From positions 7,997,671 through 8,061,670 of the forward strand of contig JBNZDD010013721.1 in NCBI GenBank assembly GCA_050575255.1: 64,000 nucleotides of DNA. The letters are read 5' to 3'. Shown in pieces: positions 6,701-62,762 of this stretch. The stretch comes from Harriotta raleighana (taxonomy: Eukaryota). Under the pieces are notes generated by a model. The model worked only from the letters and a program-made list of their open reading frames with translations, did not search any database and was not told the origin of the DNA. Both the position numbers and the translations under genes were made by a program. Within the stretch, counting starts at the first letter, position 1, and the number at the start of each line of letters is the position of its first letter.

Positions 6701-7419
6701 TATTTGGAAAACTAGTCTGAAATAACCCAAATCAGGACACTTTTGGCCGGTTCAGTCACTTTCGATCTGGAAACCAGCCTGTCTGGGTTTCACTGCATCA
6801 CTAAAAGTTCCCTGTTAGATCACCAGCTTATTGCGCGAAGCTCTTTTATACATATTATGTTAAGTCAGGGCATTAAATACAATAAGGATAAATCCAAACC
6901 GATTCTTTGTGTCAGAAATAGATACATATATTTTTCAGATTAAACGTATGGTGGTAAAGTAGATTTACATAAACGCAGCTAGAACAGCTTGTTTTCAATC
7001 TTCCGGGCACATCTGTCCTCAATGCCTTCAGTTGAAGCATCAATTTCCCCTCGATCTTCCCTCCAAGACTCAGCCGGTATCATTGCTGTCTGATTGCATT
7101 AAAACTGCTGGATGTGTTAATAGGTTTCATGCAGTGCTGTGGCTCTTTATAGCTGTGATCATGCTTTTTGTCATTCGGCAATGCTGACCTGAAGAAATCC
7201 TGACTTCATTTTCCAAAAGATGTTGTCAATACACATGACACTGAATCAAATGCGCTATGTGAAACGCAAGGATTATTCGAGTGTAGGTAAGGGATAGCTG
7301 GTAGAATTAGATGAAAAAATACTCTGAGCAATGCAATCCTGCAAGATCCGAGTGAGGAAGTGTGAATATTGACTTCAAGATCAAATCATTTAACTATGAA
7401 ATAAATTGCAAGTTTTATT

Positions 7420-7632
7420 TGAGAGATGTTGGCCAGGACACCAGGTGGAACGGATGGATGGGATCTCAGTTTAATTCCTCGAGGACAGCACCTCCAACAA
7501 TGCAGCACGCCCCCAGCACTACATTCAGAGTGTCAGCCTAGAATGTGGGAGTTTTAAGACACAACATGGGGATTGAAGCCACAAACTTTTAAGTCTGGGA
7601 GGCGAGCCTTCTATAAATTGAGCTGGGCTGAC
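7420..7632 (-). mobile_element. SacSINE1-like Deu-SINE, 5' half
   Basis: Minus strand: GTCAGCCCAGCTCA head, CTAGGCTGACACTC, GCTGCATTGTTGGAGGTGCTGTC, GGTGTCCTGGCCAACAT; same family as 19512-19905 and 62242-62690. Confidence 0.75.
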
Positions 7633-12122: not shown

Positions 12123-12442
12123 CTCAGTGGTTAGTTAACTCAATAGTTAGAGCACTCTCCTTGCAAGTGAGAGACCTGGGTTTGATTCCCGGCAGAGCGA
12201 AATGTTGGGCAGGTTTGCTTACTCCACATGCCTCTGTTGCCCAACGAACACAATTGGTGGATTGCTTACCTGGGGTTAATAATTCATGACTGATTGTGGT
12301 ACAGTGCTGTGTGCAATTGGCTGCTGTGTTTTTTGCACATCAATATACAGTCAATTAGTTCACTGTACAATATATTCTGCAAAGCACTTTGAGACAGCTA
12401 GAAGATGTTAAAAGTGCTACATCAAATTGCAAGGATTCTTAT
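12123..12442 (+). mobile_element. tRNA-headed SINE (family A), near full length
   Basis: A-box-like CTCAGTGGTTAG, stem-loop CTCTC-CTTGCAA-GTGAG, B-box GGTTTGATTCC, body GCTGTGTGCAATTGGCTGC, tail AAAGCACTTTGAGAC...GCAAGGATT. Confidence 0.85.
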
Positions 12443-13450: not shown

Positions 13451-13769
13451 GAGGATTGTAGGCCAGAATACTGGAAGAAACTTGTATCTCTTATTATTGC
13501 ATGGTACAATTACTGTATAGTCAACTATGATATTTTGTTATTATTGGATCACACAATCTTAAAGTAGTAAATTGAATTTCAATTTTCGACTATGAGAAAG
13601 TAATATTTTTAATAATATTAATCCAGATACAGAGTTGTTCACTTTGGGAGGTCATCTCAAGGTACTTCATTGGATGTACAATGAAGCGTGTATTTCGTAT
13701 GCGAATATTATTAATGTTAATGTGGGAGCATGCTGTTCCTGACTATGCCAACTGTTCGCTCGCTGCACC

Positions 13770-14240
13770 TCCCAAGTCTTCCTGACACAAACTGCAGATT
13801 ATTCAGAAAACTCTGCATCTCGTGGCCTCGCCTGCACCAGGCTCTGGGAACCTATCACCCACATACTTGCCCAGCTTCACTGGGTCCCCATTCCTCAGAG
13901 AATCAAATACCAAACCTTTATTCTTACTTTCAAGGCCCTCCACGTTCTTGCTCCCCCCTACCTTTCTGACCTCATAACCCAATATCAGCCTGTCCACTCC
14001 CTCCGCTCTGGGGACACCAGCCTCCTTCAGTTCCCCTGCACCTCACCATTGGCAGTCAGACATTCAGCATCACTGCCACCACACTCTGGAACGCTATTCC
14101 ACAATTCCTCCACCTGACCCTCTCTCTTCCTTCCTTCAAGTCCCATCTGAAGACCTTTCTCTGCGACAACACCAATACTTTCTGGTGTTTGTTCTAAAGT
14201 TACTTTTCACAGCCTGGAACTGAGAGCGCTTCTCATGATG
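13770..14240 (+). mobile_element. L2-clade LINE ORF2 3' fragment (frameshifted)
   Basis: Translates in pieces KLQIIQ, PITHILAQLHWVPIPQRIKYQ, FKALH..PPYLSDL, LWNAIP, SFKSHLKTFL, all typical L2 ORF2 C-terminal motifs. Confidence 0.85.
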
Positions 14241-18783: not shown

Positions 18784-19511
18784 AATATGCTTTCCTTGTT
18801 TCATAAGTAACTACTAGACATATGAAGTGAAAATGTCATAGGCATTTGTGCAAAACAATGTTATGTGGATTTAAAAGAGAAATTGGGTGCCTTTTGCTGA
18901 GTGGAAAGATCGCACGAGAAAGTGCAGAGGAATGAAGAAATGAGAGGAAGGGCAGAGCCATACTCACACTGAATGATGCATTCGGCTGTCGAGCCAGCCT
19001 ATCCATTCTACATTCTGGCAAAGAACACTGAAGCAGTGTTTAATGAGATGCTAAATAAATGAGGACCAGACTGAGATCATAACCTGGATAAACTCACAAT
19101 TATGAGTGCGAACAAAGCAGCCCATTTGGCTGAGAATGAATTGAACTTTCCCCCCTACAACATGCTGGAAACATCAGGCAGCCTCTTAAGTAAATTTTGA
19201 AAGATGTAGACAAGGAAGGGCCCGATTTAGTTGCTCTTCGAATCTCCACTTTCCAGATAGATTTCTTAGCGAATATATCCATCAAGTCTGACCAAGTACA
19301 CAAGGTACAACAGAGTGTACCTTGTGCTTGAGAGATAGCACAAGCCATTCACCTGACTCCCCGTGCAGTTAATTCTCTCTATCATCCCCCTCCCCTCCCA
19401 CCACCCCACATGATAGAATTGCTGATGCTGTGAGATTCCTCACCAGGAAAGAGGTAGGATCAGTGGGAGATTTCTCACAGACTTTCCTCAGTAAATAATA
19501 AATAAATGCAG

Positions 19512-19905
19512 CAATAATTCTTGCATTTGATACAGCAACTTTCAGGCCGGGAGGGAGTCTCAAAGTGCTTCACAGGGATTTTATCCTCAGTGTAGTGACC
19601 GTGCATTTATTAGGCAAATGTGGCAACCAATTTATGCATGACAGTCATAAATGCATAAACAGTCATGACGTGAATGGTCAATGTTATATGGGGCGATTGT
19701 TGGTCAGGACACCAGGAGAAACTCCTTTCTCTTTTCAAATTAGTGCCATGGGATCCTTAACGTCAGCAAGTACAATTTAATGTCTCATCCGATGCAGTGC
19801 TGCATTGATGTGTCAGCCTTGACTGTGATTTCAAAGTCCAGACATGGGACTTCAACCCACAACCTTCTGGCTCCAAAGCCAAGTGTGCTACTGACTGAGC
19901 CAGGT
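19512..19905 (-). mobile_element. SacSINE1-like Deu-SINE, near full length
   Basis: Minus strand: CCTGGCTCAGTCAGTAGCACAC (A box), AGAAGGTTGTGGGTTGAAGTCCCA (B box), Deu domain GATCCCATGGCACTA...GGTGTCCTGACCAA, L2-like tail. Confidence 0.85.
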
Positions 19906-20232
19906 GTGGAGCAGTATTGCCAGAGGCTTGTAACAAGTTATACACTTTCTCTTCTGAGTGGCAGCCACAGGAGATACCTAGGAAAACAAGAGTAAAACAC
20001 GTGAAAAATAAGATTTAGCAGATTTTCTATATCTTGGAGTACTGCACGCTGCAGAGTATAGATTTCTCATCTTTACGAGAGAGTTTTGCTCATTTCATTT
20101 GAAAACACAACAGTATTTAAATTGTCCTACCACACATTGAGTGCCTGGACTTGTTTCCAGGGTCTGGTGTGTTCACTGGATACAATCGTCAGGCCTCGAT
20201 TGGTTTCGGAGACTTTTTAACCAGGGAGCCAC

Positions 20233-20530: not shown

Positions 20531-22109
20531 TATAAACCTGAGACACGACTATCCATCCTTCAAGGTCGGACTGTTGGAAATAAACCGAATGATCCTTTCT
20601 AGCACCACGTCTTTCAGAACGCTGCCTGTCAATATCTCGTGGTGGCAATGGTTATTCCAATGTTCAGAGATGCATTGTTCCCATTATTGTGGTCTATGTC
20701 CAACCTACCATGCAACGCTCTCAGATTGCATCGTGTGCCACCACTGACCAGTGACTTTGTCGTCCATTTTGTCTCTGCCTTCACAATTCCTTTCAACACG
20801 ATAGAACTTTATTCTCACTCTAATCAGTTCTGATTAGTTTTCCTAATCCCTTTCATCTCCTAAACCCCTCTGTGCCTCTAAAAATGTTGTCATCTTTTCT
20901 TATTGTGTTCGGTTGAATGAACGCAAAAAACATCACTGGAACTTTAGCTTTATCCTTTAGTGCATTGTTAATATTAAAATGTACTAATAGCACAGTGGAG
21001 AAATCAAATTATGCACATAAATATGCTTGCGTAGCAGGAATAAAACTGAAGTTAGTGACAACGATGCCACTTCACATTTGCAAATCTACCATCAATCTGT
21101 CATTAAATATGTTATCAGAGAATGCTAAGTGTATGGTCCTTGCTTGCGTTGCTGCTTATTCATGATGCTGATGTGCAGTAATGGGGCAATGTACATTAAC
21201 ATATTCTTGGTTGAATGAACACAAAACATTCCTAGAAGCTTCTGCCTTGATTCCCCCTGTGACTAACTAGCAAGTGTGGCATATCCTCAAATTGCCAGAA
21301 AAAAGCAAAAACACATTACTTTTAATTAATAGTCCCATCACTTATTTATCAGTTGAATCCTCCTGTCCCAGTGATTTAAGTGATACATAAACCATAGGCC
21401 ATTTGATTTATTAACTCTTCGGGCACTGAGTTATGACTGTGCTGCATGTGAGCGGGCAGAGCCTCGTTGGTATTTATTCAAAAATATATATTGTTTTATG
21501 CGGCTGATCATGAATAATTAAAGAGGAGAATATAAATTCATATCTCTTCATTAACCTGATTAATTCTGATTGTGCCATTTACTGTCACAACAGGAACCTG
21601 GTAACCCATTCATTTCCGCTGCTCAACAGCCCCTGAGAATAAACAGATCTGGCCCCAGAAAATCATGCTGTAAATTAAGAGAATTGTGTGTGTGTGAGAC
21701 CGGGATGGGATGGCATTTCTGCAAGGCACAATATAAGAGGCTTATCAATAAACCAGCAGGAGTAGGTCTGTGTGTTATTTAGCCCCAGACTTGCGACAAC
21801 AGGCAAGCTATTTTGGGTGCAGTTCATTAAGGAATTTGACGTTGAGTTCTACTGAGTTTCTGGAGTACAGTTTGTGTTATCCACATCGGCTGAAATAGCT
21901 GCTTCCTCTTTTTTAATAGTAATTTTTAAAAAAAAATTAATAGTCTTTATCAGAAGGTGGGCATGTCTTTGTGTTGGGTGAGGATAGTATTGGGGTTAAC
22001 TGTGATGCGGATTTCCATTGTCTTGGCTCTAACATGAAGAATAATTACATGGGCAGGGCACTAAGGAGATAGCAGTTAGCTGTAGAACTAGATCCAACTT
22101 GACTTGATA

Positions 22110-22600: not shown

Positions 22601-23519
22601 CTCATGTGAAGATCCTGGAAGCATCAGTACTTACTGACTCTATTAAATATGCTGGTATTTTGAACAAGTGCCAGAGAAATTCAGCAGCCAAATGATTAAC
22701 GGATCTTTTAACAAAGTCTGCAATATTTTGCAAAGGTAGGAGAATGGCTTGGTGTTGGAGCCACAGGAAAGGAATGCATTGGTCTAATAGCATCATCGTT
22801 CTGCTATGCTAACACATCGGTTCCAATTACTATTAAAAAAAAGGAAGCAGCCATTTCAGTCGATATAGATAAAACAAACTGTAACTCCAGAAACTCAGTG
22901 TCCTCCCTACCAATCAGAGCCAAGATCAGCATTGGGATCTCAAATATCACTGTATATTTGGATGATTTCATTGTTATTCACATGACAAAACACTTTGTAA
23001 TTTTACACCAGGGTTTAGGTTTGACATGTGAACTTGTACTGTAAATTTACCAAAGCTCTATCATATCTCATCCTTTCCTCCTGATTGATGTCATCATGTA
23101 TGAAAATGTAATGTGTTCGAACCTAGGGGGACATGTGATGTTCAGTGAATCATTTTGTGTGGAAAATAAATGGCTGAAAAACCCTGGTTCAGGGCATGGC
23201 CACAGATTGATACCATCTATGTTATTCCACTGTTACTGCTTGTGTTATCATGACAATGAGGGCAAACAGTACAGCTGTTCTCGTCAGCGCTTTCCCGTCG
23301 CTCTGTGGAGAGCAGACACAGTTGTGAATCCTGCCCACACCCCCCACCAGGCGACACCTGGGCAGCAAGACACCATGTTTGTTCTCGTTCGCGCTTGTGA
23401 TTTTTGTCACTGGCTCTGGAGGGAGCTGGCATTTCAATCCCATTTCACAGGATTAAAGTCGTAATTCAATCCCAACTGAGTGCCACGATCGTTAACAATG
23501 GCATTTGTGAACCCCAGCT

Positions 23520-28703: not shown

Positions 28704-29005
28704 AATAATAGTCCTTCCATTTGATATAACGCTTTTCACATCCTCTAGATCTCTCAAAGTACTTCACAGAATATACTGTAAAGTGAATTGTCTGTATATT
28801 TGTGGGCAAAACGTGGCAGCCAATTGCATACAGCAGTGTCCCACAAACAGTCATGGATTGAAATAACCAATTTATTATTGTTTTATATTTGAGGGCTTAT
28901 TATTAGGTGGGTGGAGTAAGGAAACCTGCTTTCACCTTGCCTGGAATTGAACCCAGGTCTGTTGCTTGTAAGGCGAGTGCTCTAACCACTGAGCTACAGG
29001 ACTCC
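28704..29005 (-). mobile_element. tRNA-headed SINE (family A), full length
   Basis: Minus head GGAGTCCTGTAGCTCAGTGGTTAGAGCACTCGCCTTACAAGC...CCTGGGTTCAATTCC; its tail abuts the body of the preceding Deu-SINE. Confidence 0.9.
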
Positions 29006-30489
29006 ACAAGTATGGATGTGATGCTGATGAAATCACCATTGTTAGGTTGATCCCACCGATCTCAAATAAGTTTTGTGTGGAAACAGTAGTTATAACTTAC
29101 ACGTCAGTGAAGGGGTTAATTCCTCAGGATTATGCTAAACCCAGTAGAATTTGCAATGGGAGAATTAAGATCATTTTCACAACAAATGATACACAGAAAA
29201 GCAAGGCTTCTTCTTTAGGGCTTTATTAGTAAATGTTTTACTCTCTCTAAGGATTTTGTCTCGGCAGTGAATTATCTAAATTAGGAAAATTGCCACATAA
29301 AACAGTAGACGCTGCATAATATCAATGCACATCTCTGTTTTGTTAACTTGCAGCATTATTGTATTCGCCTCAGAAATTTTATATCTATTAGAGTAAACTC
29401 TGGCACAGACAGTTTTGCTATGGGGTATGGGGGAGGAAGGGGTGGTGCGGAGGGTAGAATTATACAGCCTGCAATAGGTCAAGGAGTACTTTATTTATTT
29501 ATAGCTTCCCTTTATTGAATTGTGATATGAAATAAACCATATTTTATCATGGAATACAACTACAACAATGACATCTGTAGCGCCTTTCATGTCAGGAGGA
29601 CGTCCCAAGGTGCTGAGGTAAAGAAGAATGCATCGGGAACCCGTATTAATGGGAACCTCTCTTTACCAGCCAATGTTTCAAAGTGACATTGGCATGATTT
29701 GGAATTGGAAACTGTCCAAAATTAACTTCTTGCGGACTGTGGTCGTGTCTCCACACTGGTCCTTTTATATTTTTTGTATATAAAAAAATAACTAATGCTT
29801 CTCTGATTATTGAGGGAAGGCAGTAACTCAAGTTGGAGGCACTCTCAGGTTCTGTGTACATCTTAAATTCCAGATTAAAGTACCGAGTCGTGGAATACAT
29901 AGCTCTGAGAGGCTCAGTGGTGCTGTGCTGAATTCCTGATCTCAGCTGCTTTAATGCCAGAAGGGAATATAAAATTTAACATCAGTTAGAATGATTAAGG
30001 TACCTAAGAAGGTTCTTTGGGATTAATGTTAAACCTCAGATATCCTTTGTTGTAAATTTATTCTACTTCTGGCAAATTTATAAACCAAAGGAAGGTTAAC
30101 CCACAGGATTCCCTGTTGATTGCTCACCAGGCACCTCCACTTACTTGCCTTCAGCCAGATGAGTGGGGGAGTGGGGGGGGGGGGGGCAGCCTGTCAGCCA
30201 TGGGCAACGCAAGACTTGGGCAGAACCAGCGAGAGGGAAAAGCACGAGTTGAAAGTAAAAGGTGACTTGGCCTTCAACAAAAGAAAGTTGCACAAGCCTA
30301 TTCTGCAGTTGTTCAGCTGAGAGCGTGTGCATTGTTGAAGCTGTAAGGAATGCTTGGCATGCAAACGAATGAGAGTCCCATTTGCCAGAACTGCTGAGCT
30401 TGACCTGCTTAGTATAAGTAGCCCTGGTTGACAGCCCCCTAGCATTTGAACTGAACCGAACTTAATTTCCTGCCTGCCTTGGAAAACGG

Positions 30490-30760
30490 TAGGAAGGGAG
30501 CAAGTCGGAAGGATAGACAGGCGAGTGCTAGCAGAATGGTCAGTAGGCTTTGAGAAGGTCACAGAGGTAGGGTGGGGCAAGACGCTGGAGGAGTTTAAAC
30601 GAGGCCGCAGAGATCTGGTGTAGGACAGAGCAAGGCGACCAGAGCGCAGGACGTTGATGTAGTCAAGCATGAACTTAATAAAAGCGTGGACAAGGCTCTC
30701 AGCGGGCCGAGGGGAGAGGCGGTGGTAGAGGTGGTGAGAAATAAAAGCCGTAAAGCAAAT
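30490..30760 (-). mobile_element. L2 ORF2 internal fragment
   Basis: Minus ORF contains LSPRPAESLVHAFIKFMLDYINVL, matching L2 motif AExLVHAFVTSRLDYCNSLL. Confidence 0.8.
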
Positions 30761-33700
30761 TCTGAGTAAACGGCCAGAGATAAAACATTGACAGTTCATT
30801 TCAGCAGGAGAACAAAAGTCAGTTGGGTGAAAAAGTTAGATCCAGCGTCACTCCAGAATTTAGTGATCATCCATGTATCAGTCAGTAAGGGTACACAATG
30901 CAAATGAGCCTTTACATCTCATAGCCTAAATCAATTTTTGCATATGAATGAATCGGGATTGAAGTGCAGTGAGGTAACTCAAATGCAGCTGATCTGACCT
31001 TGCCCTTGTGCTGCCTATTAGTAAGTGAGTAGGGGGGGGGGAGGGGGGGGAGTTTTGTACGATAAATTCACAATAATGTTTAACCTGCCAATTAGTATAC
31101 TTTGTGATTAAAGGCAATTTATAGGGGGCTGGTGAGGGGTGGGGAGCAGAAGGAGGAAACAGTCATGCAATGCTACATTGGAGATGAAAACAAGCCCCCT
31201 TCATTGAAGACGTCCTCAGCTTCATTCTCAATTAGAAATTGCCAACTTCAAAGAGCAGTTTTACAGCGGCTGTAGCAGAAATGAATGCCTCACAACTGCA
31301 ATGCACTACCAGACTCTACAGAGCCTTTAACTGTGACCGTCAACGAATCTGTTCACAATGTTTAATGCATCATTTCTGAGTTCTACTCTTAAAATGCAAA
31401 ATTTTCATTTAATTTTGTTTAAAAAAATATACAGGCTCATTCTTATCAAGAGCAAAAGAAAGCTTTGGACAATCCCCAGGGATTTCAAATGAGCTGGAAA
31501 GGAAAATGATCTACACGAACATATCATTGCATTGGTCGGAGATAGAATCCCAGCCATTTTTGGAATAGATTTCCTCCTTATTTGCTATGAGACTGTACCA
31601 CCCCTCCCCTCCCTCATCCAGGGAAAGTCTTTAACTAATTTCTTTCCTCAGTTAAACAGCAATCACTCTTCTGTCACCAGAGTCTTAAACTTTTGAACCC
31701 TGTCAGCAAAAAATTCCAACAAAACGTAACCAAAGATTCACAAGGGAACAATTCAGTACCATCAAAATGAACTGCTGCAATACATTAGTGTCTGTGTGCA
31801 GCACGGCGAATATTGAGCTCTGTGTGCAGTAATTGTCACGATGACAGAGCTGGGAAAGCTCTTTATAATTAGGATGGTTGTTTTGTCATGTGTAATGATC
31901 TGGAGAGGAGTCAGGGAGGGTAGAGGAAGGAGAGCTGCTTTTTTTCCCCCCGCAGCCTGCAGACAGAGCCGGCCGGCAGCTGGTAGATTGGCTCAGCAAG
32001 CCACCCATCAGCTGTCAGAGAATTGTGCGGCAGAGACTCGGACGAAATAAAGCCAATCAGTGAAATAATGAGCAAGGTAATATCCCCCCAGAGACTTCCT
32101 GCCGGTTTTGTCAAGCCCACCGCAACTGTCCAACTATTTGCTTTATTAGGAACAGTATTTCTCTATTGATAGGGGACGCCTTTGTTTCGCATTAGGAGGG
32201 AGTTAAGGTTGTGTGGGGGTGGAAGTGGGGTGGGGCGTTGTGGGTCTTGATTCAAATCACCATGCATTCTGTTTGGTTTGGGGTGGGGATGGGAGGGGGT
32301 GCAGTTGGTAAAAGCACCGTTGGAAATCCTTCATGTTGGGATCATTAAACTGTGCACAGGCACAGAAATCCAGGGCATTTATCAGCGCTCCAATCCCAAA
32401 CAACTTTCTTATTTGCTTTAATCATTTGAACTGATGTTAATTTCCCCCCTCCCTCAATCTCTTCGCTCCCCCCACCCCCACCCCGCACCACCACCACCCC
32501 AAGTCGGCTTTCTGTCCAGCACTCTCTAAAATTCCACAGCTGCCAAGTCAGTGGGTCCAGGACTTTCTTCCAAGCAGGAGTTTGGCTGTTCTGTCACTGA
32601 GCGTGTGAGCGTTCGCTGAACATCTTTGCATTTCTGGAAGGCTGCAGCATTTTAATTAAGCAGTAATGGATGCATAGGAGAACTGTCTTGCCACCCTGAG
32701 AAAAGGCTGATTGAAGGATCAGAGGTTGATTCTGTCAATCACCTGCTACCTTCAGCTAGCCAACATAGCACAGTACAAAGCCTGTCCATTATTGTGATTC
32801 AGTCGCACCTTGAAATCATTATCTTTCAGTGACTTATTTAGGCCTGAACTCTTTTTTTTTCCTAAAAAGTAACATTGTTTGTTTCCTTCCCTGCTCCCCC
32901 CACCCGCCCGAACACATATACACACTATTATCCTGAATAACAATCAAATTTGCACAATCATGAGGACCCTCTCTATGTTTATCCCAAATACTTCAGCCAT
33001 CCTGTATAATTCAGCTGTTCGCTCAGATGTGGTTGAGTTACTTTTGGTGAATAGGAGGAAATCAACTTCACAAACCCCAACCCTTAGCGAGTCTGCCCAG
33101 AGCCTGCTTGTCCTTGGAAATCCGTCTGTCCGTCACTCACTCCCTTAGCCTGAACAGCCATATCATCATCTTTTCATAACGCCCACTGATGCTCTTACAC
33201 AAACACACAATGCTGTCTCCGATGTCGCTCTCTATTGAGACATCACTGCTAACCTCCACTTTTGTCCGACTTCAATCCCTTTGCATATAATTTAAACGTA
33301 TTCGCAATCTGCAACAGCCATCAAAATCAGCCAGACATTTTGCACAGCACACTCCACTTTTGATTCTGTGATCACTCTGAATTACAGTTACAGGCACATT
33401 CCCACAGCAGAGAGTGCATTGTAGGCTAGTGCCAAGAGAAGCAGAACCATAGGGCCATCATTCAAAGCCCATGATGGCTTGAATACCGTCCTTCAGAATA
33501 TCAAATGACATGATTCTGATTAATTCATCATCTAAAACTAATTCAGGCAGTGTCACCAAAGGAGGTACTGCAGTGTCCAAAGTCAACTTACATTAAGGTT
33601 GAAGTGACCTAGTGGGAACAGCTACCTATCGCACTTTTAAGTACTTTGTAAAGTGACATGGGGTACCTTGTTTCACAAATCAACTGGAAATTAAATGATT

Positions 33701-45909: not shown

Positions 45910-46312
45910 TGTCAGCCTGGCTCAGTTGAAAGCACTGTCGCTTCCCAAATCCCCAGAATTTTACAGCTGATCGTCAAGGCAGACACTCCAGTACAGTGCT
46001 GGGGGTGCACTGCATTGTCACAAGTAAGATTTCATCTCTCTGCTGAGTTGGACATTGGAGATTCTATGGCGCGATTTGACAAAAAAAAGGATTTTGTCCT
46101 AGTATTTCAGCCAAGTTTATTAGTATTATTATTAAGAGCCCTGCAGGTAAAAAATAAATAAATGGTCATTTCACTTTGAAGCTATTTGTGGGCCAAATTC
46201 TTATTGCCTCCGCCTTCAAAAATATTTCACAGAAAACTCTGCAAAGCAATTTGTGAGATTTTGCCAGAATAAGTCCCTGTATCAAATACGAGAATTACTA
46301 TTATTATTATTA
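45910..46312 (+). mobile_element. SacSINE1-like Deu-SINE, decayed full length
   Basis: Head TGTCAGCCTGGCTCAGTTGAAAGCACTGTCGC, AGGCAGACACTCCAGTACAGTGCTGGGGG, tail TATCAAATACG..(TAT)n. Confidence 0.75.
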
Positions 46313-48395: not shown

Positions 48396-49178
48396 AAGTT
48401 CACTGTGAATGGACCAAATAGTATTGAGGGCCGAGAGCAGATTAATATTCCTTACGTTTGAGAAAGTTGGCAGGATGTCTCAAAGCACTTTAGGGGATTT
48501 TACTATAAAGTGGCTGTATATTTTTTAGACTTAGTAGCCACACACATGGTAGAATTGGTAGGTATCAGGGAACAGTCACTGCACACCTTACATCAGGCAA
48601 CATACTGGCATAGAGATCGCGAACAGTAGGTGAGCATAACCTTAGAAAACAATTGTTATAAACAGTCTTTTGTTTGTGGAGAGAGGCAGAGAAAGAAAGA
48701 GAGAGAAAGTAGGTAGCAGAGCGGAATGTCACCCAATGGGTTTGCTGTGATTTATTTCATTCCACTTTGTGTTTGTGTCCAAATGAAACACGGTTTTTCC
48801 AGCACTTTATCATGAAAACAGTCAAATGCAGGATTTAGCCTTTAGACAAAAAAAAGTCACTCTTTTTAATTCTTCAAGTGCCAAAGAACTAAAGGCCTGA
48901 ATAGATGTGGTTTGTGCTGCAGATGTATTCTGTAGCCAATAATTTACAAATTATAAACACCGAAAGAGTGATATGAAAAGTATAAGCCGTCAGCATTTTA
49001 CTATTTACTGTGTATTGTAACATAAAACCTGGATCTTTCCACTCTGGGATGCTATCCTGCATGAGAGGCACTATTTAAATGTGCCTCTCATATATAAATA
49101 TATGGGTAATTGTTGTTGCTTCTTAAAGGGTACTTTGCCATTTGCTAGTTGGCTTTCAAACAGATCCGTGAGAGCGTA

Positions 49179-49405
49179 TAAGCAAAACGCGAAATACTGC
49201 AGAGGTTGGAAGTCTGAAACAAAAACAGAAGTCACTGGGAACACTCAGCAGGTCAGTTCAGCATCTATGGAAAAAGGAAAGTGGGTCAACGTTTCGGGTC
49301 CACGAGCTGAAGAAGGATCATGGACCCAAAACGTTGACTCACTTTTCTTTCTCCATAGATGCTGCCTGACCTGCTGAGTGTTCCTAGCGACTTCTGTTTT
49401 TGTTC
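49179..49405. mobile_element. Palindromic non-autonomous element, Penelope-like, with hammerhead ribozyme remnant
   Basis: Inverted arms ~49218-49305 and ~49318-49404; flanking direct repeat CCGTGAGAG(C/A)GTA at 49166-49178 and 49406-49418; homologous to 51509-51650. Confidence 0.8.
49304..49340 (+). ncRNA. Degenerate minimal type I hammerhead ribozyme
   Basis: CTGAAGA-A-GGATC.ATG.GACCC-AAAAC-GTT-GACTC; the GAAA box reads AAAA here but is intact (GACCCGAAACGTTGAC) on the opposite arm. Confidence 0.55.
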
Positions 49406-51134
49406 CCGTGAGAGAGTACTTTGTCCTGAAAGTATTCCACTATGGGAGTATGTGCTTTGGGAGTCTGCGAACAAAATGCACAGCTCTAAGGTAGATCTGT
49501 GAGCAACACTGTAAAGCTTTGCAAACTGCAATCTCTTATATTTCCACCTGAGTGTAAAAAGCCTTATTGTTCACTGACTGCTTGAGATTAGCCCGTGTAA
49601 CTGCCACGCGTCTAAAGTTCTTACACATGCTATTATTATCTTGCGATTGCACGGCAGTGAGAAAGGAGTTCAGGAGAAGTCTATGACAAAACTTCACAAA
49701 CAAAATATTGGTTGTCACGTCAATTTGGTGCTGTGTAAGTTAATATATTCATCATTATACACGTCGAAAATCATCAGCTACTCGGTGCATGTGGCTGATG
49801 CTTTCTGACACTTTGCTACTGATCCTGTTTGTTTATGTTGGCTTGCGGAGGAAGAGCTCTACACTCCAGTCCGACTCCTCTCAGCTCTTGCTCTCAGTGG
49901 AATAAGTGGAAAACAGCATCTTATCAAATCCCGTCCTGGCAATATGTCAACACAGACTGAACCACACTGCATGAGAGGTTACTCTTTAACTGAACAACAC
50001 ACAACAGCAACACTAATGAATCTGACAAGCCTGCAAACGTTTGATGTTCCTCTTTAATGGTGAAATAAAATGACAGATCTGAACCTTTCTTATATCATCT
50101 GAAAGGAGCTCAATGTTCTAAATAAGGCCTTAACGATTTGTTAAACAGGCTTAAAATGACGTACTGTAAATTAAATAGGACTGATGTTGGCGTCCGTCCA
50201 ATCAGTGAATGGTCAGTGCTTTTGCTTCTCTTCCCTTTCTACCTTTGCTGACTTGTGTCCATTATTTAAGCACTAATATTTCAGATTTCCTCCACCAATA
50301 AACTTTACCTTATATTTATGCATACTTTCAATTCTTTAGTTCATCTGTTTAATTTGCCTCGGTCTCTCTGACTGCTCTGAAATCTCACATGTATACATAG
50401 CACAATTAATTCTGTGACATTACTTAAGTGACACTACTATTGCTAGAAATACCATCCTACATGTCTGTCATAAACAGTCATAAAAACTTAGGAATAGAAG
50501 TAAAATGTGCTGTACCATTTTATTAGAGCTGATTTAAATAGAAGTCAACTTGACCAGATGTCAATGATCTTTACCTTCTTTTTGCCAAGACAGTTTCACT
50601 CCTGTTGGTTAAATTGCAATTAATATTATGAGCCATACACTCCTTTAAAAGTATCGCATGTAGAATTTTATACTGTACCCCAAAACACACAATCTGAGGT
50701 CCCTGAGCCTTGGTTCTTGCTAACTAATTCTGTCCAGAATTCGGTAAGCAGGGTGTTTCCCAGAGGGAAATTATCATGTTTGTGGAACTCTACTCCGTTT
50801 TGGATACTCTCAGACAATGATGATGGGTTTCCAGGTGTGTCAGATACCTAAGTATCCAAAACATGCAAGTCGATTAATGTGACCTGACGTACAGCTTTCA
50901 ATACTGGCTGTGCCTTATGACCTCTACACTCTTTAGATTACTATTGATAGCATTCTGCAAGTGTACTAAGCATTTTGCTCACTGCTGCTGTTAAATTATT
51001 TGGTCTATAATTACTCAGATCATGTCTTGCTGGCTCTTTCTGAACATCAGGATAGCAAATGGGATCCTCCTATGCTCAGCTGCTCACGACCCCTGTATTT
51101 ATGGCGCTTCTGAAAAGAGTAATCAAAGCCTTGC

Positions 51135-51450
51135 CTAGTTCACTCTATTTTCAAAAAGGACATTGTTGCTTTGACAGAAACTCGCAGCCGAACGATGATG
51201 ATAAATCGGAGAGTTAAGGCATTACATTTTGAAGGGACTCGCAAAACAGAACTTGTTTTCACTGGATAAAAGCGGAATCCGAAGGAACATGAATCAGGTG
51301 TTTGAGATGCTGAGAAAGATCAATAATGTAGATGTAAGCGAGTTATTTGTCTTGAACTGTGATGGCAGAATTGGGAGTTATGAATATAGAATTAATGAGC
51401 CTCAAGTGAGATTGAAGTTTAAACAAATTATTTTTTCCGCAGAGCAAAAA
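51135..51450 (+). mobile_element. CR1 ORF2 3' fragment
   Basis: ORF 51229-51453 NLFSLDKSGIRRNMNQVFEMLRKINNVDVSELF aligns by eye to CR1 LFSLEKRRLRGDLIEVFKIxKGxDxVD. Confidence 0.75.
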
Positions 51451-51508
51451 TAGAGAAGGGATCCCCTACAATTATAGTGATGTGTCAACCTGGATCAGTT
51501 GATAGCAT

Positions 51509-51650
51509 AGAACAAAACACAAAATACTACAGATGCTGGAAATCTGAAACAAAAACAGAAGTTGATGGGAAAACTCAGCAGGTCAAGCAGCATCCATGGA
51601 GAAAGGAAAGTGAGTCAATGTTTCAGGTCCACGACTCTTTGTCAGAACTG
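51509..51650 (-). mobile_element. Single-arm copy of the Penelope-like hammerhead element
   Basis: Homologous to 49182-49305; exact 11 bp TSD GTTGATAGCAT at 51498-51508 and 51651-51661. Confidence 0.85.
51613..51649 (-). ncRNA. Degenerate minimal type I hammerhead ribozyme
   Basis: Minus strand AGTT-CTGACAA-A-GAGTC.GTG.GACCT-GAAAC-ATT-GACT: stem I AGTT/GACT, imperfect stem II, GAAA intact; two CpG-type changes from CTGACGA and GAAACGTT. Confidence 0.6.
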
Positions 51651-52394
51651 GTTGATAGCATGTTCCCTTTGAGTCAGAAGGTTATGGGTTTAAAGCCCCT
51701 CCTCAGAACCTTTTGGAACGGCCACCGAAATAATCATAGAGATGACAAAACAGCCACAGATTTATGCCCTAAAGCAAGAGATATTCCATCAAGAAACATT
51801 GATATAAAGAGGATGAAATGTTAAACCTCAATCCCATCTGGCATTATTTGTAAAGAAACGTGAGTTTCCCCTGTCCAACAATGAACACAGCCCCAGATAA
51901 GAAAAAATTGGTCTTGAGCTCCATTGCTGTTTGTCAGGCATTTCTATGCACAAATTGGACGCTGCATTGCCTTACAAAAACAGTCGCCACATTTTAAAAG
52001 TAAATCCCATGAGAAGCCCTTTGAGATGTTTTCACAACGTGATAAGGCGTTATATCAAGCGCAAAGATTGTTATTGTTTTCAGATCTCAATTGTTTCCTG
52101 ATTAAGAAAGTGGTTTCGATTTAGAATGAAAAGGACACACAAGGATGTCGACTTCCTGTATGGAACTTGGTGGCATCTGAGCTCCTGTGGGCTGTGGAAA
52201 TGTCACCTATTGAAGACAACCGGTCTGGGTCAAAATGTAAAGCCTGCAGTGTTAGATTGATAAAGCAAAGATTCACTGAATTATCAGGAGACTGCAGGAT
52301 AAATCTCGCTCAATTTGTGGGGACCTATCATGCACTAATTTCCCATTGTAAACAGTTAACACAAACATTGTTATCAAAAGGCATTAGTGCCTGC

Positions 52395-54520: not shown

Positions 54521-54816
54521 TGTAGCTCAGAGGTTAGAGCACTCGCTTTACAAGTGACAGACCAGGATTCATCTGCAGGCAGGGTGCAACCTTGGGCAAG
54601 TATCCTTACTTCACACGTCTAATAATAATCCCTCAAAAAAATTTGATCATTTCAATCCACAAATGTTTGTGGGACACCACTGTACGCATTTGGCGGCCGT
54701 GTTTCGCCCACATATATATGGTCAATTCGCTTCACATTATATTCTGTGAAGCGCTTTGAAACGTTCAGAAGTGAAAAACACGATATAAAAATGCAAGGAT
54801 TAGTATTAATATTATT
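54521..54816 (+). mobile_element. tRNA-headed SINE (family A), full length
   Basis: TGTAGCTCAGAGGTTAGAGCACTCGC..., CAACCTTGGGCAAGTATCCTTACTTCACA, tail ATGCAAGGATTAGTATT. Confidence 0.9.
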
Positions 54817-56476: not shown

Positions 56477-56892
56477 CAGTAAAATTCCGATAATCCGGCA
56501 CGTTCGGGACCTAGGCTGTGCTGGGTTAGAAAGTATGCCGGATTATTGGACGTTACTCTTAGAGATGGGAGGATTTGAGTGTGNGTTAGAAAGTATGCCG
56601 GATTATTGGACGCTACTTTTAGAGATGGGAGGATTTGAGTGTGCTGTCACAGCACACTGAAATCCTCCCATCCCTGTGCTCTTATCTATGTTACATACCT
56701 GTATAGCACTTATTAAAGCGTGCATGCGCATTTATTAAACGTGACATCAGTGACGGGCCTCCGAGGAAAATGCACCGAGTAGTGTGAAGGCTTTCTGGGA
56801 AGAGATGCGCATAGAGGAAAAGACGGAGGTTCCAGATGCCGGATTATAAAACATTCCGGATTAACAGATGCCGGATTAAAGGAATTTTCCTG
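56477..56892. mobile_element. Tigger/pogo-like MITE
   Basis: TA-CAGTAAAATTCCGATAATCCGGCA ... TGCCGGATTAAAGGAATTTTCCTG-TA: 24 bp TIR (3 mismatches), TA TSD, subterminal CCGGATTA repeats. Confidence 0.9.
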
Positions 56893-57591: not shown

Positions 57592-57909
57592 AATAATAAT
57601 AATCCTTGCATTTGATATAACGCTTTTCATATCTTCTGGACGTCTCAAAGTGTTTCACAGAATACTGTATACTGCAAAGTGAATTGATTGCATATTTGTG
57701 GGCGAAACACAGCAGCCAATTATGCACATCAGTGTCCCATCAACAGATGTGGATTGAAGTGACCAATTTATTATTGGGTTTTTTTCTTGAGGGATTATTA
57801 TCAGGCCTGTGGAGTAAGGAAACTTGCCCAAGGATTTGCCATGTCGGGAATCGAACCCAGGTCTCTCACTTGCAAGATGAGAGTTCTAACCACTGAGCTA
57901 CAGGACTCC
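57592..57909 (-). mobile_element. tRNA-headed SINE (family A), full length, best-preserved promoter
   Basis: Minus: GGAGTCCTGTAGCTCAGTGGTTAG (A box) ... GAGACCTGGGTTCGATTCCCG (B box) ... CCTTGGGCAAGTTTCCTTACTCCACA ... ATCAAATGCAAGGATTATTATT. Confidence 0.92.
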
Positions 57910-59683
57910 AAATGGCCCATATGAATTCAGATTTGGAAGTGACTAGAATTTGGAGGAGGTGAGCGTGTGTGTGTATATGTGTGTGTGTGTGTGCAAGGGT
58001 GGGGGGAAAGTGGTTTGCACGCTCATATGTGCTCTCCCACACAATTGTATGTACACTGACACATACACACAAGCAATGAGGAGGCAATAAACCACAAAGA
58101 GATGCTCAGCGGTATGGCATTGTAATGCATTAACCACGCCTTTCAGGAGATTCCTAATTCAACAAGTTCAGCTGTAACGCTCATGGATAAGGCTTGTGAT
58201 ACATTTGGGGAGAGGCAGAAATCAATCGATGAGAGCTAGAAGGAAGAGGTATTCTTTTTCTCAAAGAGTGAAAATGAGTTTTGCATATTTTACATTCCAT
58301 TGCGCGTGCAAAGCTATAAAAAGGTTTAAGAAGCACCGACTTTTTGTCTTCTGGTGAGGAGACAATCACTTGACTGGCTCCTGTTGAAAGGAGATCAGTA
58401 AAATTGTCAGTTGATTACTTTGCCTTGATTAGCATTTATAAGAGTCCTACGATACATATTTGCATTCCTATTTAGCTGAGATTTTGTGGGGCAGAAATGA
58501 TTAAACTTGTCACCTAAGCTGATTGACAGGGTCAGATCTTTGCTTTATATTCTTTTGAAATTAAAAACAAATGTGTCAACTTCTTCACGCAGCTGAGTGC
58601 TGAGAAGCTGGGCTGCCTTGTCATCGGAGATAGGTCAGGAATGTTTTAATTTTAGGGATAGATTCTAGTTGTCAAGTGAGTCTGATGGCGTGTAGTTCTG
58701 AAGACAGGATGTGAAGGGTGTATAGAAGAAGGCAGAACAACAGACCAAGACAAACACTCTCGCATCATTATCACAAGCAGCGGATACTTTCTCTGACAAT
58801 TTAATCACTTTGAATGGAGGCGAAAGTCTATCAAGCAAATGAATGGCATGGTCTTGCTGGTCAGTTTAAAGAATGAAATGATATTTGCCATTCGGCTATT
58901 AACTTTTTCACTGCCACGTTGCCATTTAATACCCATTTGTTGCTCCTCTATTCTTTTTGGTGCCTATTGTACTGGCGTTTGGGCATTTTTCAGTACTGAA
59001 TGAAAATGATGTGAAATGGCACCCTGCTCTGGTTAACAAAATACTTCCTGGTATCTGTTCTGAAATTTCTCTTTGTTGCTCAAACCTGTGCCCTCTGTAC
59101 TACTGCCTTGCCGCTGAAGTAAAGATCTGGGTTGCTTTAATCAATCCCATTTAAAAATGCATCTCACCTCCACAAAGTCCCCTCTAAGACATCTCTGAGG
59201 GTATTGATGAGTCACACACCTCAAGCATTGACTTATTTTTCTCTTTCGGGGGATAGCCTGCTTTGAATGTGAAGCATTTTCTGCTTTCATATAAAGTAAA
59301 TATTCTTTTGAGACAGGTATCATTCATTTGCTCTTTCAATATCTCAGAATCCATCCATGTTTTAAGGTAGGAAACAGACAGCAGTCAGATGATTACTATC
59401 AACTTGAGATGTTTTGTTGAAAAGTAAATACAGGTCTGTGCCAAATGCACAATGCATAATATCTGTTGATCTTTGGCTGCAGAAAAACTTGGTTCAACAT
59501 TTGGCATTTTCAACTCGTTTGATTAATTTGTCTTCCACAAGAGTCCATTAGAAACTGTTGGCTTGAGTTCAAAGCTAGCAAAATTCAAATGTGCACAGCA
59601 GGTGGCTCCTCAATCTGTGCACAGGTAAGTAACATTTGATTTACTTACTACTTTGCTGCATCCGTGAAACATTGTCTGCTTTC

Positions 59684-60107
59684 GACTTCATTGGCTCCCT
59701 ATCCCAGAGAGGATCGACTTCAAGATCCTCACCCTTGTTTTCAAATCCCTCCATTCCTCTGCACCTCCCTATCTCTCTGATCTCCTCTCCCCCCAAACCA
59801 GCACCCGCTGCCTTCGCTCCTCTGGGATCTGGCCTCTTCCATGTCCCCCGAATCCTCCGCTCCACCCTCGGTGGCCGTGCCTTCAGCCACTACATCCCGA
59901 GGCTCTGGAACTCTCTTCCTCACTCACTTCGCCTCGCCTCCTCTCTTCCCAGTTTCAGGTCACAGCTGAAGACCTTTCTCTTCGACCGTGCTTTTGGTCA
60001 CCTTTCTGCCCCTGGCTCGGTCCCGGGATCCTCTATTGTGAAGCGCTCTGAGACCCCATCCAGCGTGGAGGGCGCTATATAACTTGAAGTTGTTGTTGTT
60101 GTTGTTG
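59684..60107 (+). mobile_element. L2 3' end, best-preserved copy in the window
   Basis: LHWLPIPERIDFKILTLVFKSLH..PPYLSDLL, frameshift, then STLGGRAFSHYIPRLWNSLPHSLRLASSLPSFRSQLKTFLFDRAF; (GTT)6 tail. Confidence 0.92.
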
Positions 60108-61179
60108 ACTGATCACTGTTTATTAAAAGTGGCCAGTAGGGTAACTCTCACTGTCTGTCTCTATACTGTATTGACACACAATTGTGTCCCTTGCCAAGGT
60201 TAGGTGTAGCCTTCAGCACCAAGAGGTCTGTGAGGCAGCAGCTGAGCTTGGCTACTCCAGCGGAGAGAGGAGCAAACTGTACCTGTGTTGTTGCTAGGAA
60301 TGGCACTGACCATCTTCTCAATTGTATAGAGTCTGTCAATTCAAAAATAAAATGAACACACAAAATCGTTTGAGTAAATCTGCTCTCAATCTCGACGTCA
60401 AACCCCAGTTTATGTGCCCCATCAACAATGGTATGGTTGGGAGGCAGCCAGTGTAGTAATCTGATTGTCTGTTGCCTGCAATGATACCTATAATATAAAA
60501 TATCAACAACCTTTACAGAGTGATACAGGAGTGAAACACAGCAAGGATACAAGGACAGTGTAAACCTTCAGCATGAACCTAACATTTCTCTGTGCAAGCT
60601 GACTGTCACATTTCATCCAGAAAATACACAGTCAAGCAGTATATCACGTGAAACGTTTTAAGATGGTCTCGATGATGTGATAAGGCGATACATCAAATGC
60701 AAGGATTATTAGTACGATATAATAGTGGGCCAGAAGTGATTCTGACTCTTTAATGTGGGCTTTTGTACTTGGAGCAGAATTGACCTGTGTGTGTGTGTGG
60801 GTGTGCGAGTGCATGCGTGTGGGGGTCGGTGTGGGGGTGCTCTTAATTATCAATCCGTGCAGTTTGGATTCTTTTCCCTTCAAAATTACATGAAGAAATC
60901 TCACTCTATAGCACCACAGAAAGCAGAAACTTATAATTACAATAAATCACCAGAACCATTGCCAATAAAAACTGGCCTCAGACCAGCGCTAATAGATGTC
61001 AAAGCGGTGCCCTGTCAAGTAGGTAGAGTTGGCTCTTGTGTCAACATTACAGTGAAATCTATGTTAAAACGTCAACTCAAAGCTGGGCTTCTTCCACTCT
61101 GTTAGTTTACTCTCTCTTGCTGTGCGGAAATGAAACCTCAATTAAACAGGCCTCACTCATGTGAATGCTTTCAGTGATT

Positions 61180-61448
61180 ATAATAATCCCTGCATTTGAT
61201 ATAGCACTTTTCACGTCTCCTAGATGTCTTGAAGCGCTTCACGGAATGTACTGTAAAGTGAATTGATTGTACATTTGTGGACGAAACGCTGCAGCCAATA
61301 GCGCACAGCAGTGTCCTACAAACAGTTGTGGATTCATATAACCAATTTATTATAAGTTTGTTTTGGATGGATTATTATTAGGCCTGTGAAGTAAGGAAAC
61401 TTGCCCAAGGTTTCACCCTGGATTCGAAACACAGGTCTCACACTTCAA
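61180..61448 (-). mobile_element. SINE family A, 5'-truncated within the tRNA head
   Basis: TAATAATCCCTGCATTTGATATAG...GTAAGGAAACTTGCCCAAGG...GATTCGAAACACAGGTCTC. Confidence 0.85.
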
Positions 61449-62241
61449 ACGTGATATTTAAATAGAAAATTCAATCTGTTGTTGGCAATAAAAACAGGAA
61501 GAAAGCAATACGCACTGCAGGTTGCGTTCAGTGAAGCCGCAAAGCATTTCTAAGCTGTCTGTGACTGTACATCACTACGTTGCAATGATTCTCAAATAAT
61601 GCGTATNGATTCGAAACATAGGTCTCACACTTCAAATGTGATATTTAAATAGAAAATTCAATCTGTTGTTGGCAATAAAAACAGGAAGAAAGCAATACGC
61701 ACTGCAGGTTGCGTTCAGTGAAGCCGCAAAGCATTTCTAAGCTGTCTGTGACTGTACATCACTACGTTGCAATGATTCTCAAATAATGCGTATTATCTAA
61801 CAATTGGCCTGAACATTTACCTCAGTAAATATAATGGATAATAGCACTCTGGCATTGATCTTGGTGACATTCAACCATTTCAAACATAGCTAAAGAGTAA
61901 AGTTGTTTTGTAGCAACTACACAAGCTGGAACTGCAGAAATAGCCTGAATACAGGGGCAATGATGTGTGTCTCTTTTGTATTGCTGGACAGATTCACGGC
62001 CATTGTCTTACATGGATAAGGCTTTGAAAAAGACATAGCAGAAGGACAATTATTATTACATGGCAAGGACAGAGCTGCTAGATGACTTTAAAACTTTAAA
62101 ACATAAAGCAAAAACAGACAAATTCAAAAAAGGCGGGGGGAAAATTGGGAAATGAATACGACACACCACATGATACTTCTCACCAGTGTTCATCAACAAC
62201 AATGATGTGATAATTATTTTTGTTTCTGTGAGCACTCTAGT

Positions 62242-62762
62242 CTCTGAGTTGGGAGCACTCTCACCTCTGAGTTGGGAGCACTCTCACCTCTGAGTTGGGA
62301 GCATTCTCACCTCTGTGTCAGAAGATTGTGGTTCAAGTTCTGGATCAGGACTTTGCGCCCATGGTCAGAAATTTTCAGCCATTATGGGGAGGCCTTCAGG
62401 GCTGGCAGCCTCCAGGTGAGGCATTAAACCAAGCTCCCATCTGCCTGTTCGAGTGGATGTTAAAAAGCCCATGGCACTGCTGTAAGATATAAATTAGTCT
62501 CTCCCGGTCTCCTGGCCAACAATCCTCCACATAACATTGGTGATTCACTTCACGTCCTTTTGTGAAACATTGCTGTGCGCAAATTGGATGGCACGTTTGC
62601 CTATAAAAATGCACAGTAAAATCCTGTCAAGCACTTTGAGACGCCCTCCCAATGTGAAAGGCGCTGTATTAAATGCAAAAGTGATTACTGTATTTATTTC
62701 TTCGAGGCATTTTGACGATGCGATAAGGTGCCGTTTCAGATGCAAGGACTATTATTTATTAT
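62242..62762 (+). mobile_element. SacSINE1-like Deu-SINE with triplicated head and a second tail
   Basis: 3 x 23 bp CTCTGAGTTGGGAGCACTCTCAC, then GTCAGAAGATTGTGGTTCAAGT, Deu domain GTGGATGTTAAAAGCCCATGGCAC..GTCTCCTGGCCAAC, tail to ~62690 and an extra tail to ~62762. Confidence 0.85.

What the first reader, a model, noticed from the sequence alone, without database searches (positions are those of the whole stretch)
49166..51661. Short mobile non-coding element carrying a minimal hammerhead ribozyme (retrozyme/Penelope-like), two independent insertions
Seen: two homologous 140-230 bp elements (49179-49405, 51509-51650) share the arm AAATACT(G/A)CAGA..GGAA.TCTGAAACAAAAACAGAAGT...CTCAGCAGGTCA..CAGCATC.ATGG. 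Each has a different flanking direct repeat (13 bp CCGTGAGAG(C/A)GTA; exact 11 bp GTTGATAGCAT), so they inserted separately. The inner end reads CUGANGA - stem II - GAAAC-GUU - stem I. The two copies are mutated at different positions and together rebuild an intact core, roughly AGUU-CUGANGA-A-GGGUC-NNN-GACCC-GAAAC-GUU-GACU. Established: type I hammerheads with an almost absent, palindromic stem III (GAAACGUH) occur in terminal repeats of Penelope-like retroelements and in non-autonomous retrozymes, and are proposed to cleave as dimers. Inference: this is a non-autonomous, ribozyme-processed retroelement family mobilised in trans. Long variable TSDs fit retrotransposition rather than a TA-targeting DNA MITE.
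Basis: partly seen in the sequence, partly recalled or inferred. Interest (0 to 1): 0.85.

Follow-up and report, generated by a model that had tools for sequence, protein, structure and literature searches.

The report
Decayed Penelope retrotransposon ends with hammerhead
These are two old, short insertions of the end of a Penelope-type jumping gene, which is already known to carry a minimal self-cutting RNA, so the finding is real but ordinary.

Summary
Copy 1 (49179-49405) is a head-to-head inverted pair; copy 2 (51509-51650) is a single arm. Both have true target-site duplications (13 and 11 bp); copy 2 splits a tRNA-like SINE whose empty site rebuilds with one repeat. No arm has an intact hammerhead and Rfam finds none, but together the arms match the published minimal-hammerhead consensus of Penelope-like elements (PLEs) (0 hits in about 60,000 simulated families). 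Two arms run 38-39 nt beyond the third: the PLE 'tail'. Inverted 5'-truncated repeat, tail, variable duplication and minimal hammerhead are all described PLE features. Best reading: 5'-truncated, decayed pLTR ends of a PLE; copy 1 probably arose from two cDNAs primed at the two target nicks. 'Ribozyme-processed retrozyme' is not supported: no head-to-tail tandem, and all arms run through the uncut cleavage site. No RT/GIY-YIG partner could be shown. One loose end: all three 5' ends fall within about 16 nt inside the ribozyme, which may mean a short non-autonomous master or an RT stop. Known kind, low interest.

The parts
49166..49178 (+). Left target-site duplication of copy 1 (13 bp)
   Evidence: 12 of 13 identical to 49406-49418; null
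49179..49305 (-). Copy 1, left arm: 5'-truncated pLTR, starts inside helix II of the hammerhead, ends with the tail
   Evidence: Alignment
49179..49216 (-). 38-39 nt 3' extension (PLE 'tail') absent from the right arm
   Evidence: alignment; 30-40 bp tail described in PMC8557442, PMC3846280, PMC11167929
49284..49305 (-). 3' half of the hammerhead in the left arm (helix II 3' strand, GAAA, CG palindrome, UU, helix I 3' strand); scissile bond between 49288 and 49287
49306..49306 (.). Head-to-head junction, about one unassigned base between the two 5' ends
   Evidence: the exact left-arm start is uncertain by up to 3 nt
49307..49405 (+). Copy 1, right arm: 5'-truncated pLTR starting at C3 of the hammerhead, no tail
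49307..49339 (+). Hammerhead remnant in the right arm: CUGANGA box intact, G12>A, helix II 4 of 5 pairs, no 5' strand of helix I; scissile bond 49335/49336
49406..49418 (+). Right target-site duplication of copy 1
51475..51508 (+). 5' piece of the tRNA-like SINE into which copy 2 inserted (includes left duplication 51498-51508)
   Evidence: Empty site aligns across the junction to a SINE head at 19905-19851; profile of 4 heads scores one-repeat join 35.3 bits, two-repeat 29.5, no-repeat 17.5
51498..51508 (+). Left target-site duplication of copy 2 (11 bp)
   Evidence: 11 of 11
51509..51650 (-). Copy 2: single 5'-truncated pLTR with tail (51509-51546), starting one base before helix I
51613..51649 (-). 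Hammerhead remnant in copy 2: helix I 4 of 4 pairs, G8>A, helix II 4 of 5 pairs, palindrome broken; C3 at 51645, scissile bond 51617/51616
51651..51661 (+). Right target-site duplication of copy 2
51662..52101 (+). Remainder of the interrupted SINE
   Evidence: nhmmer hit 51657-52101 to the copy at 19480-19930, E 5e-17

Best explanation
Both loci are old, dead-on-arrival insertions of the 3' terminal repeat (pLTR) of an endonuclease-positive Penelope-like retroelement. Inferred mechanism: the PLE protein (RT plus GIY-YIG) made a staggered cut 11-13 bp wide, the freed 3'-OH primed cDNA at an internal start site on uncleaved element RNA, and synthesis stopped after 100-140 nt inside the hammerhead. 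In copy 2 one cDNA (long start, with tail) was joined to the far end. In copy 1 both nicks primed a cDNA, one from each of the two start sites 38-39 nt apart, and the two 3' ends were joined head to head. The minimal hammerhead is a passenger of the pLTR; it has since decayed, partly at CpG sites, and in copy 1 a read-through RNA would fold into one long hairpin that hides it. Shown: anatomy, duplications, tail, motif match. Inferred: the PLE partner, twin priming, and that the master was autonomous.
For: Union of arms fits the minimal-hammerhead consensus of PMC4209133 Fig. S3 including the extra base after A9, G10.1-C11.1 and the palindromic 15.2/16.2 pair; 0 of 60,000 null. When helix II is read as its untied 3' strand requires, helices I+II form in the predicted minimum-energy fold (4 of 16 tie resolutions, 2 of them with an intact core). 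[quoted passage not shown] Head-to-head inverted 5'-truncated pLTRs with 8-10 bp duplications are described; paired minimal hammerheads on opposite strands and single motifs from truncated PLEs are described. The anole PLE protein cuts and extends both strands and starts at two sites that delimit the tail; uncleaved RNA is the main template. Duplication of copy 2 verified by empty site. 6 of 19 variable three-way columns are CpG-type, including G12>A and the broken palindrome.
Against: No RT or GIY-YIG sequence linked: no such Pfam match in 93 stop-free segments (87 from 43-58 kb, 6 elsewhere; 4 weak unrelated hits); element-encoded frames found no relative. No further copy at E<0.01 in the window. 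No arm is intact and no compensatory change is seen, so structure is supported by motif match only. All three 5' ends cluster in 13-16 nt, which random truncation gives in 0.03-1.8% of simulations; this favours a short master or a stop signal. In the anole element the RT start region is AC-rich on the RNA, whereas here the ends are GU-rich on the hammerhead strand.
Confidence: 0.62

Rival explanations
1. A short non-autonomous, SINE-like derivative of a PLE pLTR (about 140 nt, from helix I to the tail) is the master, mobilised in trans by a PLE protein; copy 2 is near full length. Same enzymology as the best explanation, different master. This is the defensible part of the first reader's view.
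For: 5' ends 18-21, 29 and 34 nt upstream of the scissile bond, p 0.0003-0.018 under exponential truncation (n=3, post hoc). No ORF remnant. pLTRs suffice in cis for mobilisation in trans (PMC3846280); non-autonomous PLE derivatives are described.
Against: A structured or protein-bound hammerhead could stop RT on a long template and give the same clustering (inference). The finding was picked for containing the motif, which biases the ends. No promoter evident; most PLE insertions are truncated to one terminal repeat.
Confidence: 0.25
2. Monomer offspring of a non-LTR retrozyme: tandem units are cut by dimeric hammerheads, circularised, and the circle is reverse transcribed through the ligated junction and inserted.
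For: A re-ligated circle would also let cDNA run through the cleavage site. Monomers of retrozyme families are dispersed in vertebrate genomes, and retrozymes were reported in one cartilaginous fish (bioRxiv 10.64898/2026.07.22.740005).
Against: No head-to-tail repeat at either locus; hammerhead is minimal, while the characterised retrozymes carry canonical ones; head-to-head arms lie on opposite strands and cannot dimerise in cis; the hairpin buries the motif.
Confidence: 0.08
3. A DNA-transposon MITE or foldback element (copy 1 has long inverted arms), the hammerhead match being chance.
For: Copy 1 is a 188-nt imperfect palindrome; single arms match the descriptor no better than chance; no Rfam hit.
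Against: The inverted arms are not both terminal (38-39 nt overhang); copy 2 has one arm yet a perfect duplication; duplication lengths differ (13 vs 11); union test 0 of 60,000.
Confidence: 0.03

Closest known systems
pLTR minimal hammerheads of EN+ Penelope-like elements (Penelope/Poseidon, Neptune, Xena; Cervera and De la Pena 2014, PMC4209133)
   Same: Type I topology, CUGANGA+1, G10.1-C11.1, GAAA-palindrome-UH with no helix III, short helix I, U-rich flank; single dispersed motifs and opposite-strand pairs.
   Different: No ORF attached at these loci; sequence family not among the representatives I read in Fig. S3 (and end); cores broken by decay.
Poseidon element of the green anole, PAc (Frangieh et al. 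2024, PMC11167929)
   Same: Two 3' end classes separated by a tail; template spans the uncleaved hammerhead; both-strand priming would give copy 1.
   Different: PAc ORF starts in helix II and its start region is AC-rich; here that frame meets a stop within about 20 codons in all three arms and the ends are GU-rich on the hammerhead strand.
Adineta vaga Penelope insertions and solo/inverted pLTRs (Arkhipova et al. 2013, PMC3846280)
   Same: Head-to-head inverted pLTR, optional 31-bp tail, 8-10 bp duplications.
   Different: Here nothing lies between the inverted arms; duplications are 11 and 13 bp.
Metazoan non-LTR retrozymes (PMC7229834; bioRxiv 10.64898/2026.07.22.740005)
   Same: Non-coding, type I hammerhead, tied to PLE pLTRs.
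   Different: Those are head-to-tail tandems expressed as circles; none here.

Membership tests
Minimal type I hammerhead (PLE type) | CUGANGA and GAAA-NN-UH boxes in an individual copy | tested here: not met
   Each arm has a core lesion or is truncated
Minimal type I hammerhead (PLE type) | Boxes, helix I, helix II with G10.1-C11.1, extra base after A9 and palindromic 15.2/16.2 at family level | tested here: met
   Union of three arms, 0 of 60,000 null; G8 rests on one arm of two, helix I 5' strand on one arm
Minimal type I hammerhead (PLE type) | Covariation in helices | tested here: inconclusive
   Three arms only; changes break pairs or give G-U, none compensatory
Minimal type I hammerhead (PLE type) | Self-cleavage after UH as dimer or with protein | not testable with these tools
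   Only a predicted self-duplex of the palindrome (-4.1 kcal/mol in two arms, none in copy 2); cofold did not return the catalytic dimer
Rfam hammerhead families | Score at gathering threshold | tested here: not met
   No hit
EN+ Penelope-like elements | ORF with telomerase-like RT and GIY-YIG endonuclease | tested here: inconclusive
   Absent at both loci, as expected for truncated copies; rest of the genome not available
EN+ Penelope-like elements | 30-40 bp tail at one end | tested here: met
   38-39 nt on left arm and copy 2, absent on right arm
EN+ Penelope-like elements | Inverted, 5'-truncated pLTR joined head to head | tested here: met
   Copy 1
EN+ Penelope-like elements | Variable target-site duplication | tested here: met
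   13 and 11 bp; copy 2 verified by empty site
EN+ Penelope-like elements | Sequence match to a curated PLE family (Repbase/Dfam) | not testable with these tools
Non-LTR retrozyme | Head-to-tail tandem of at least two units, each with a complete type I hammerhead | tested here: not met
   definition
Non-LTR retrozyme | Expressed as linear and circular monomer RNA | not testable with these tools
   No RNA data
MITE / TIR DNA transposon | Terminal inverted repeats at both ends and fixed-length duplication | tested here: not met
   Copy 2 has no inverted ends; 13 vs 11 bp

The most novel reading that the evidence does not exclude
The hammerhead fold sets the 5' boundary of the insertion without cutting: it acts as a reverse-transcription terminator (or marks the start of a ~140-nt PLE-derived SINE). 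Copy 1 would then be a natural record of twin priming from both target nicks at the two RT start sites, and such a family would be a large dataset for two open questions: what the PLE ribozyme is for, and how tail and head-to-head structures arise. A weak target preference (the two duplications resemble each other) would add to it.
Probability: 0.2. Interest if true: 0.55.

Novelty: new member of a known kind. Interest (0 to 1): 0.2.

Why it matters
As it stands it matters little: minimal hammerheads in PLE terminal repeats occur by the thousand in fish, coelacanth and frog genomes (PMC4209133). Its use is as a compact example of PLE insertion anatomy (tail, head-to-head pair, verified duplication), and as a lead that cDNA ends may pile up at the ribozyme, which a genome-wide tally could test cheaply.

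Tried and rejected
Rfam, whole window at gathering score (3 tRNA-like hits only) and 49000-51800 at E<=10 (7 chance hits): no hammerhead. Protein searches with element-encoded frames, hoping to reach a PLE ORF: opposite-strand 50 aa against longer proteins, 0 of 86 candidates at E<=1; hammerhead-strand frame, 0 of 1; 39 aa against 1.84 billion representatives, 0. These are weak negatives (short queries). Pfam on 93 of the 379 stop-free segments of 55 aa or more: no RT or GIY-YIG; the other segments were not scanned. A 22-nt element pattern in bacterial/archaeal genomes: 0. A 12-mer with 2 mismatches in the window: 11 matches against mean 5.8 by chance, only the three arms exact. Copy 2 as a whole folds no better than shuffles (z 0.54). 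Empty site of copy 1 matched no repeat in the window, so its duplication rests on statistics alone. Similarity of the two targets: 7 of 10, reached by 4701 of 200,000 random pairs (p about 0.02, post hoc): not accepted as target specificity. Pure snap-back self-priming for copy 1 rejected: each arm holds sequence the other lacks (inference). Sigma-70 scan is irrelevant to this host. Lunse et al. 2017 was not held.

Full report
Context. The window is about 41% G+C, without long ORFs (longest stop-to-stop 213 aa), and full of dispersed repeats (self-BLAST), among them tRNA-headed SINE-like elements. It reads as non-coding vertebrate DNA. From recall only, the repeat landscape resembles that of cartilaginous fishes; I did not test this.

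Observation. Copy 1, however, is a palindrome: a left arm on the minus strand (49179-49305) and a right arm on the plus strand (49307-49405), joined at their 5' ends as defined by the hammerhead strand. It folds into one hairpin of -144.7 kcal/mol, z -17.6. Copy 2 is one arm on the minus strand. Pairwise identities are 80/91, 106/129 and 83/99, so the two arms of one insertion are nearly as far apart as the two insertions: all are old. A profile of the three arms finds no other copy at E<0.01 in the window; the next hits are 59207-59254 (E 0.025) and 30378-30415 (E 0.11).

Target-site duplications. 13 bp (12 identical) and 11 bp (exact). Random positions match this in 4 of 2500 and 9 of 2500 draws, counting the loci themselves. 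For copy 2 there is independent proof: removing the element and one repeat restores the head of a tRNA-like SINE that aligns across the junction with another copy at 19905-19851; a profile of 4 heads prefers the one-repeat join (35.3 bits) over two repeats (29.5) or none (17.5). The empty site of copy 1 matched nothing in the window.

The hammerhead. Against: Rfam has no hit; no arm is intact; the best single arm scores at chance level; there is no compensatory change. For: the lesions lie at different positions, several are CpG-type (6 of 19 variable three-way columns), and the union of arms satisfies the full descriptor, which 0 of 60,000 simulated three-copy families did. The layout matches the published consensus for PLE minimal hammerheads, including features that are more than the two boxes: an extra base after A9, G10.1-C11.1, a palindromic centre in place of helix III, short helix I (PMC4209133). 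Four columns are tied between two arms; in 4 of 16 resolutions helices I and II appear in the predicted fold, and these are the ones that pair with the untied 3' strand of helix II; 2 of the 4 also have an intact core. I conclude that the ancestor carried a minimal type I hammerhead and that none of these copies is likely to cleave.

The feature that identifies the element. The left arm and copy 2 extend 38-39 nt beyond the 3' end of the right arm. A 30-40 bp tail at one end, an inverted 5'-truncated copy joined head to head, and 8-10 bp duplications are the described anatomy of PLE insertions (PMC8557442; PMC3846280; PMC8969392). In vitro the anole PLE protein cuts and extends both target strands, starts at two internal sites that delimit the tail, and uses mainly uncleaved RNA; its hammerhead cuts only with protein (PMC11167929). 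Applied here (inference): the left nick primed a cDNA from the outer start site, the right nick one from the inner site, both stopped in the hammerhead and were joined with about one spare base. Snap-back alone cannot give this, since the left arm has the tail and the right arm has more of the ribozyme. Copy 2 is the single-cDNA case.

All three arms contain the scissile bond, with 18-21, 29 and 34 nt upstream, so the copied RNA was not cut there, or was re-ligated. Retrozymes are defined by head-to-tail tandems; there is none, and opposite-strand arms cannot dimerise in cis. Lack of an ORF does not show a non-autonomous family, because most PLE insertions keep only one terminal repeat.

What I could not show. 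No RT or GIY-YIG partner: Pfam found none in 93 of 379 stop-free segments, and element-encoded frames found no relatives. PLE membership therefore rests on RNA motif and insertion anatomy, not on protein. No eukaryotic genome collection or repeat library was available, so copy number and whether the family is already catalogued are unchecked.

Loose ends. The three 5' ends lie within 13-16 nt of each other; exponential truncation with mean lengths of 60-800 nt gives a spread of 15 nt or less in 1.8% down to 0.03% of simulations. With n=3 and selection for the motif this is only a lead, but it points to either a short master or an RT stop at the folded ribozyme. The two targets share 7 of 10 bases next to the tail end (p about 0.02), also only a lead.

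Literature seen. PMC4209133: parts 1-2 of 4 of the text and parts 1-2 of 3 of the supplementary PDF. bioRxiv 10.64898/2026.07.22.740005: parts 1-3 of 5; its supplements are closed and may list this family. PMC11167929: parts 1-2 of 4, supplements not opened. Passages only: PMC6155905, PMC8557442, PMC3846280, PMC7229834, PMC6765202, PMC8969392. Lunse et al. 2017: not held, seen only as cited in PMC6765202. Searches listed no paper whose title or abstract start describes this particular family or clustering of 5' ends at the ribozyme; the library lacks most subscription journals and Repbase.

Verdict. Real, correctly located, and of a known kind: decayed 5'-truncated PLE terminal repeats with a minimal hammerhead (0.62), or a short non-autonomous derivative moved by the same enzyme (0.25). 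Interest 0.2.

Noticed in passing
window 28932-29003, 57836-57907, 12136-12192 (heads); family also at 54521-54810, 61177-61445 and many shorter pieces: Abundant tRNA-headed SINE-like family of about 310 bp (Rfam tRNA hits; self-BLAST).
   Followed up: no
window 19480-19930, 62290-62702, 7396-7626, 45916-46304, 51475-52101: A second tRNA-like SINE family of about 420-450 bp that shares its 3' part with the first; copy 2 inserted into its head.
   Followed up: partly
window 49166-49178 and 51498-51508: The two target duplications resemble each other next to the tail end (7 of 10; p about 0.02): possible cut preference or 3' microhomology.
   Followed up: partly
window 49340-49360 (+) and equivalents in the other arms: Just 3' of the hammerhead lies a pyrimidine tract ending in AG followed by ATG, and a second tract ending in CAG near the short 3' end; may be splice acceptors and the PLE ORF start, as pLTRs include the first codons of the ORF. 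Protein searches of this frame found nothing.
   Followed up: partly
window 59191-59254 (+) and 30378-30415 (+): Weak profile hits (E 0.025 and 0.11); the first has a faint hammerhead-like look. Possibly very old relatives, possibly chance.
   Followed up: partly
window 51205-51450 (+), 59633-60082 (+), 13743-14117 (+), 30194-30835 (-): Stop-free stretches that look like 3' ends of CR1/L2-type LINEs (label from recall; no Pfam hit).
   Followed up: partly
window 21851-21924 / 22825-22899 and 56621-56675: Other inverted repeats: 75 bp arms at 91% about 900 bp apart, and a 55-bp palindrome beside a 60-bp tandem with an N.
   Followed up: no
window 61421-61793, 3663-3764, 56524-56643: Near-perfect two-copy tandems, the last two with an N at or near the junction; may be assembly artefacts.
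   Followed up: no
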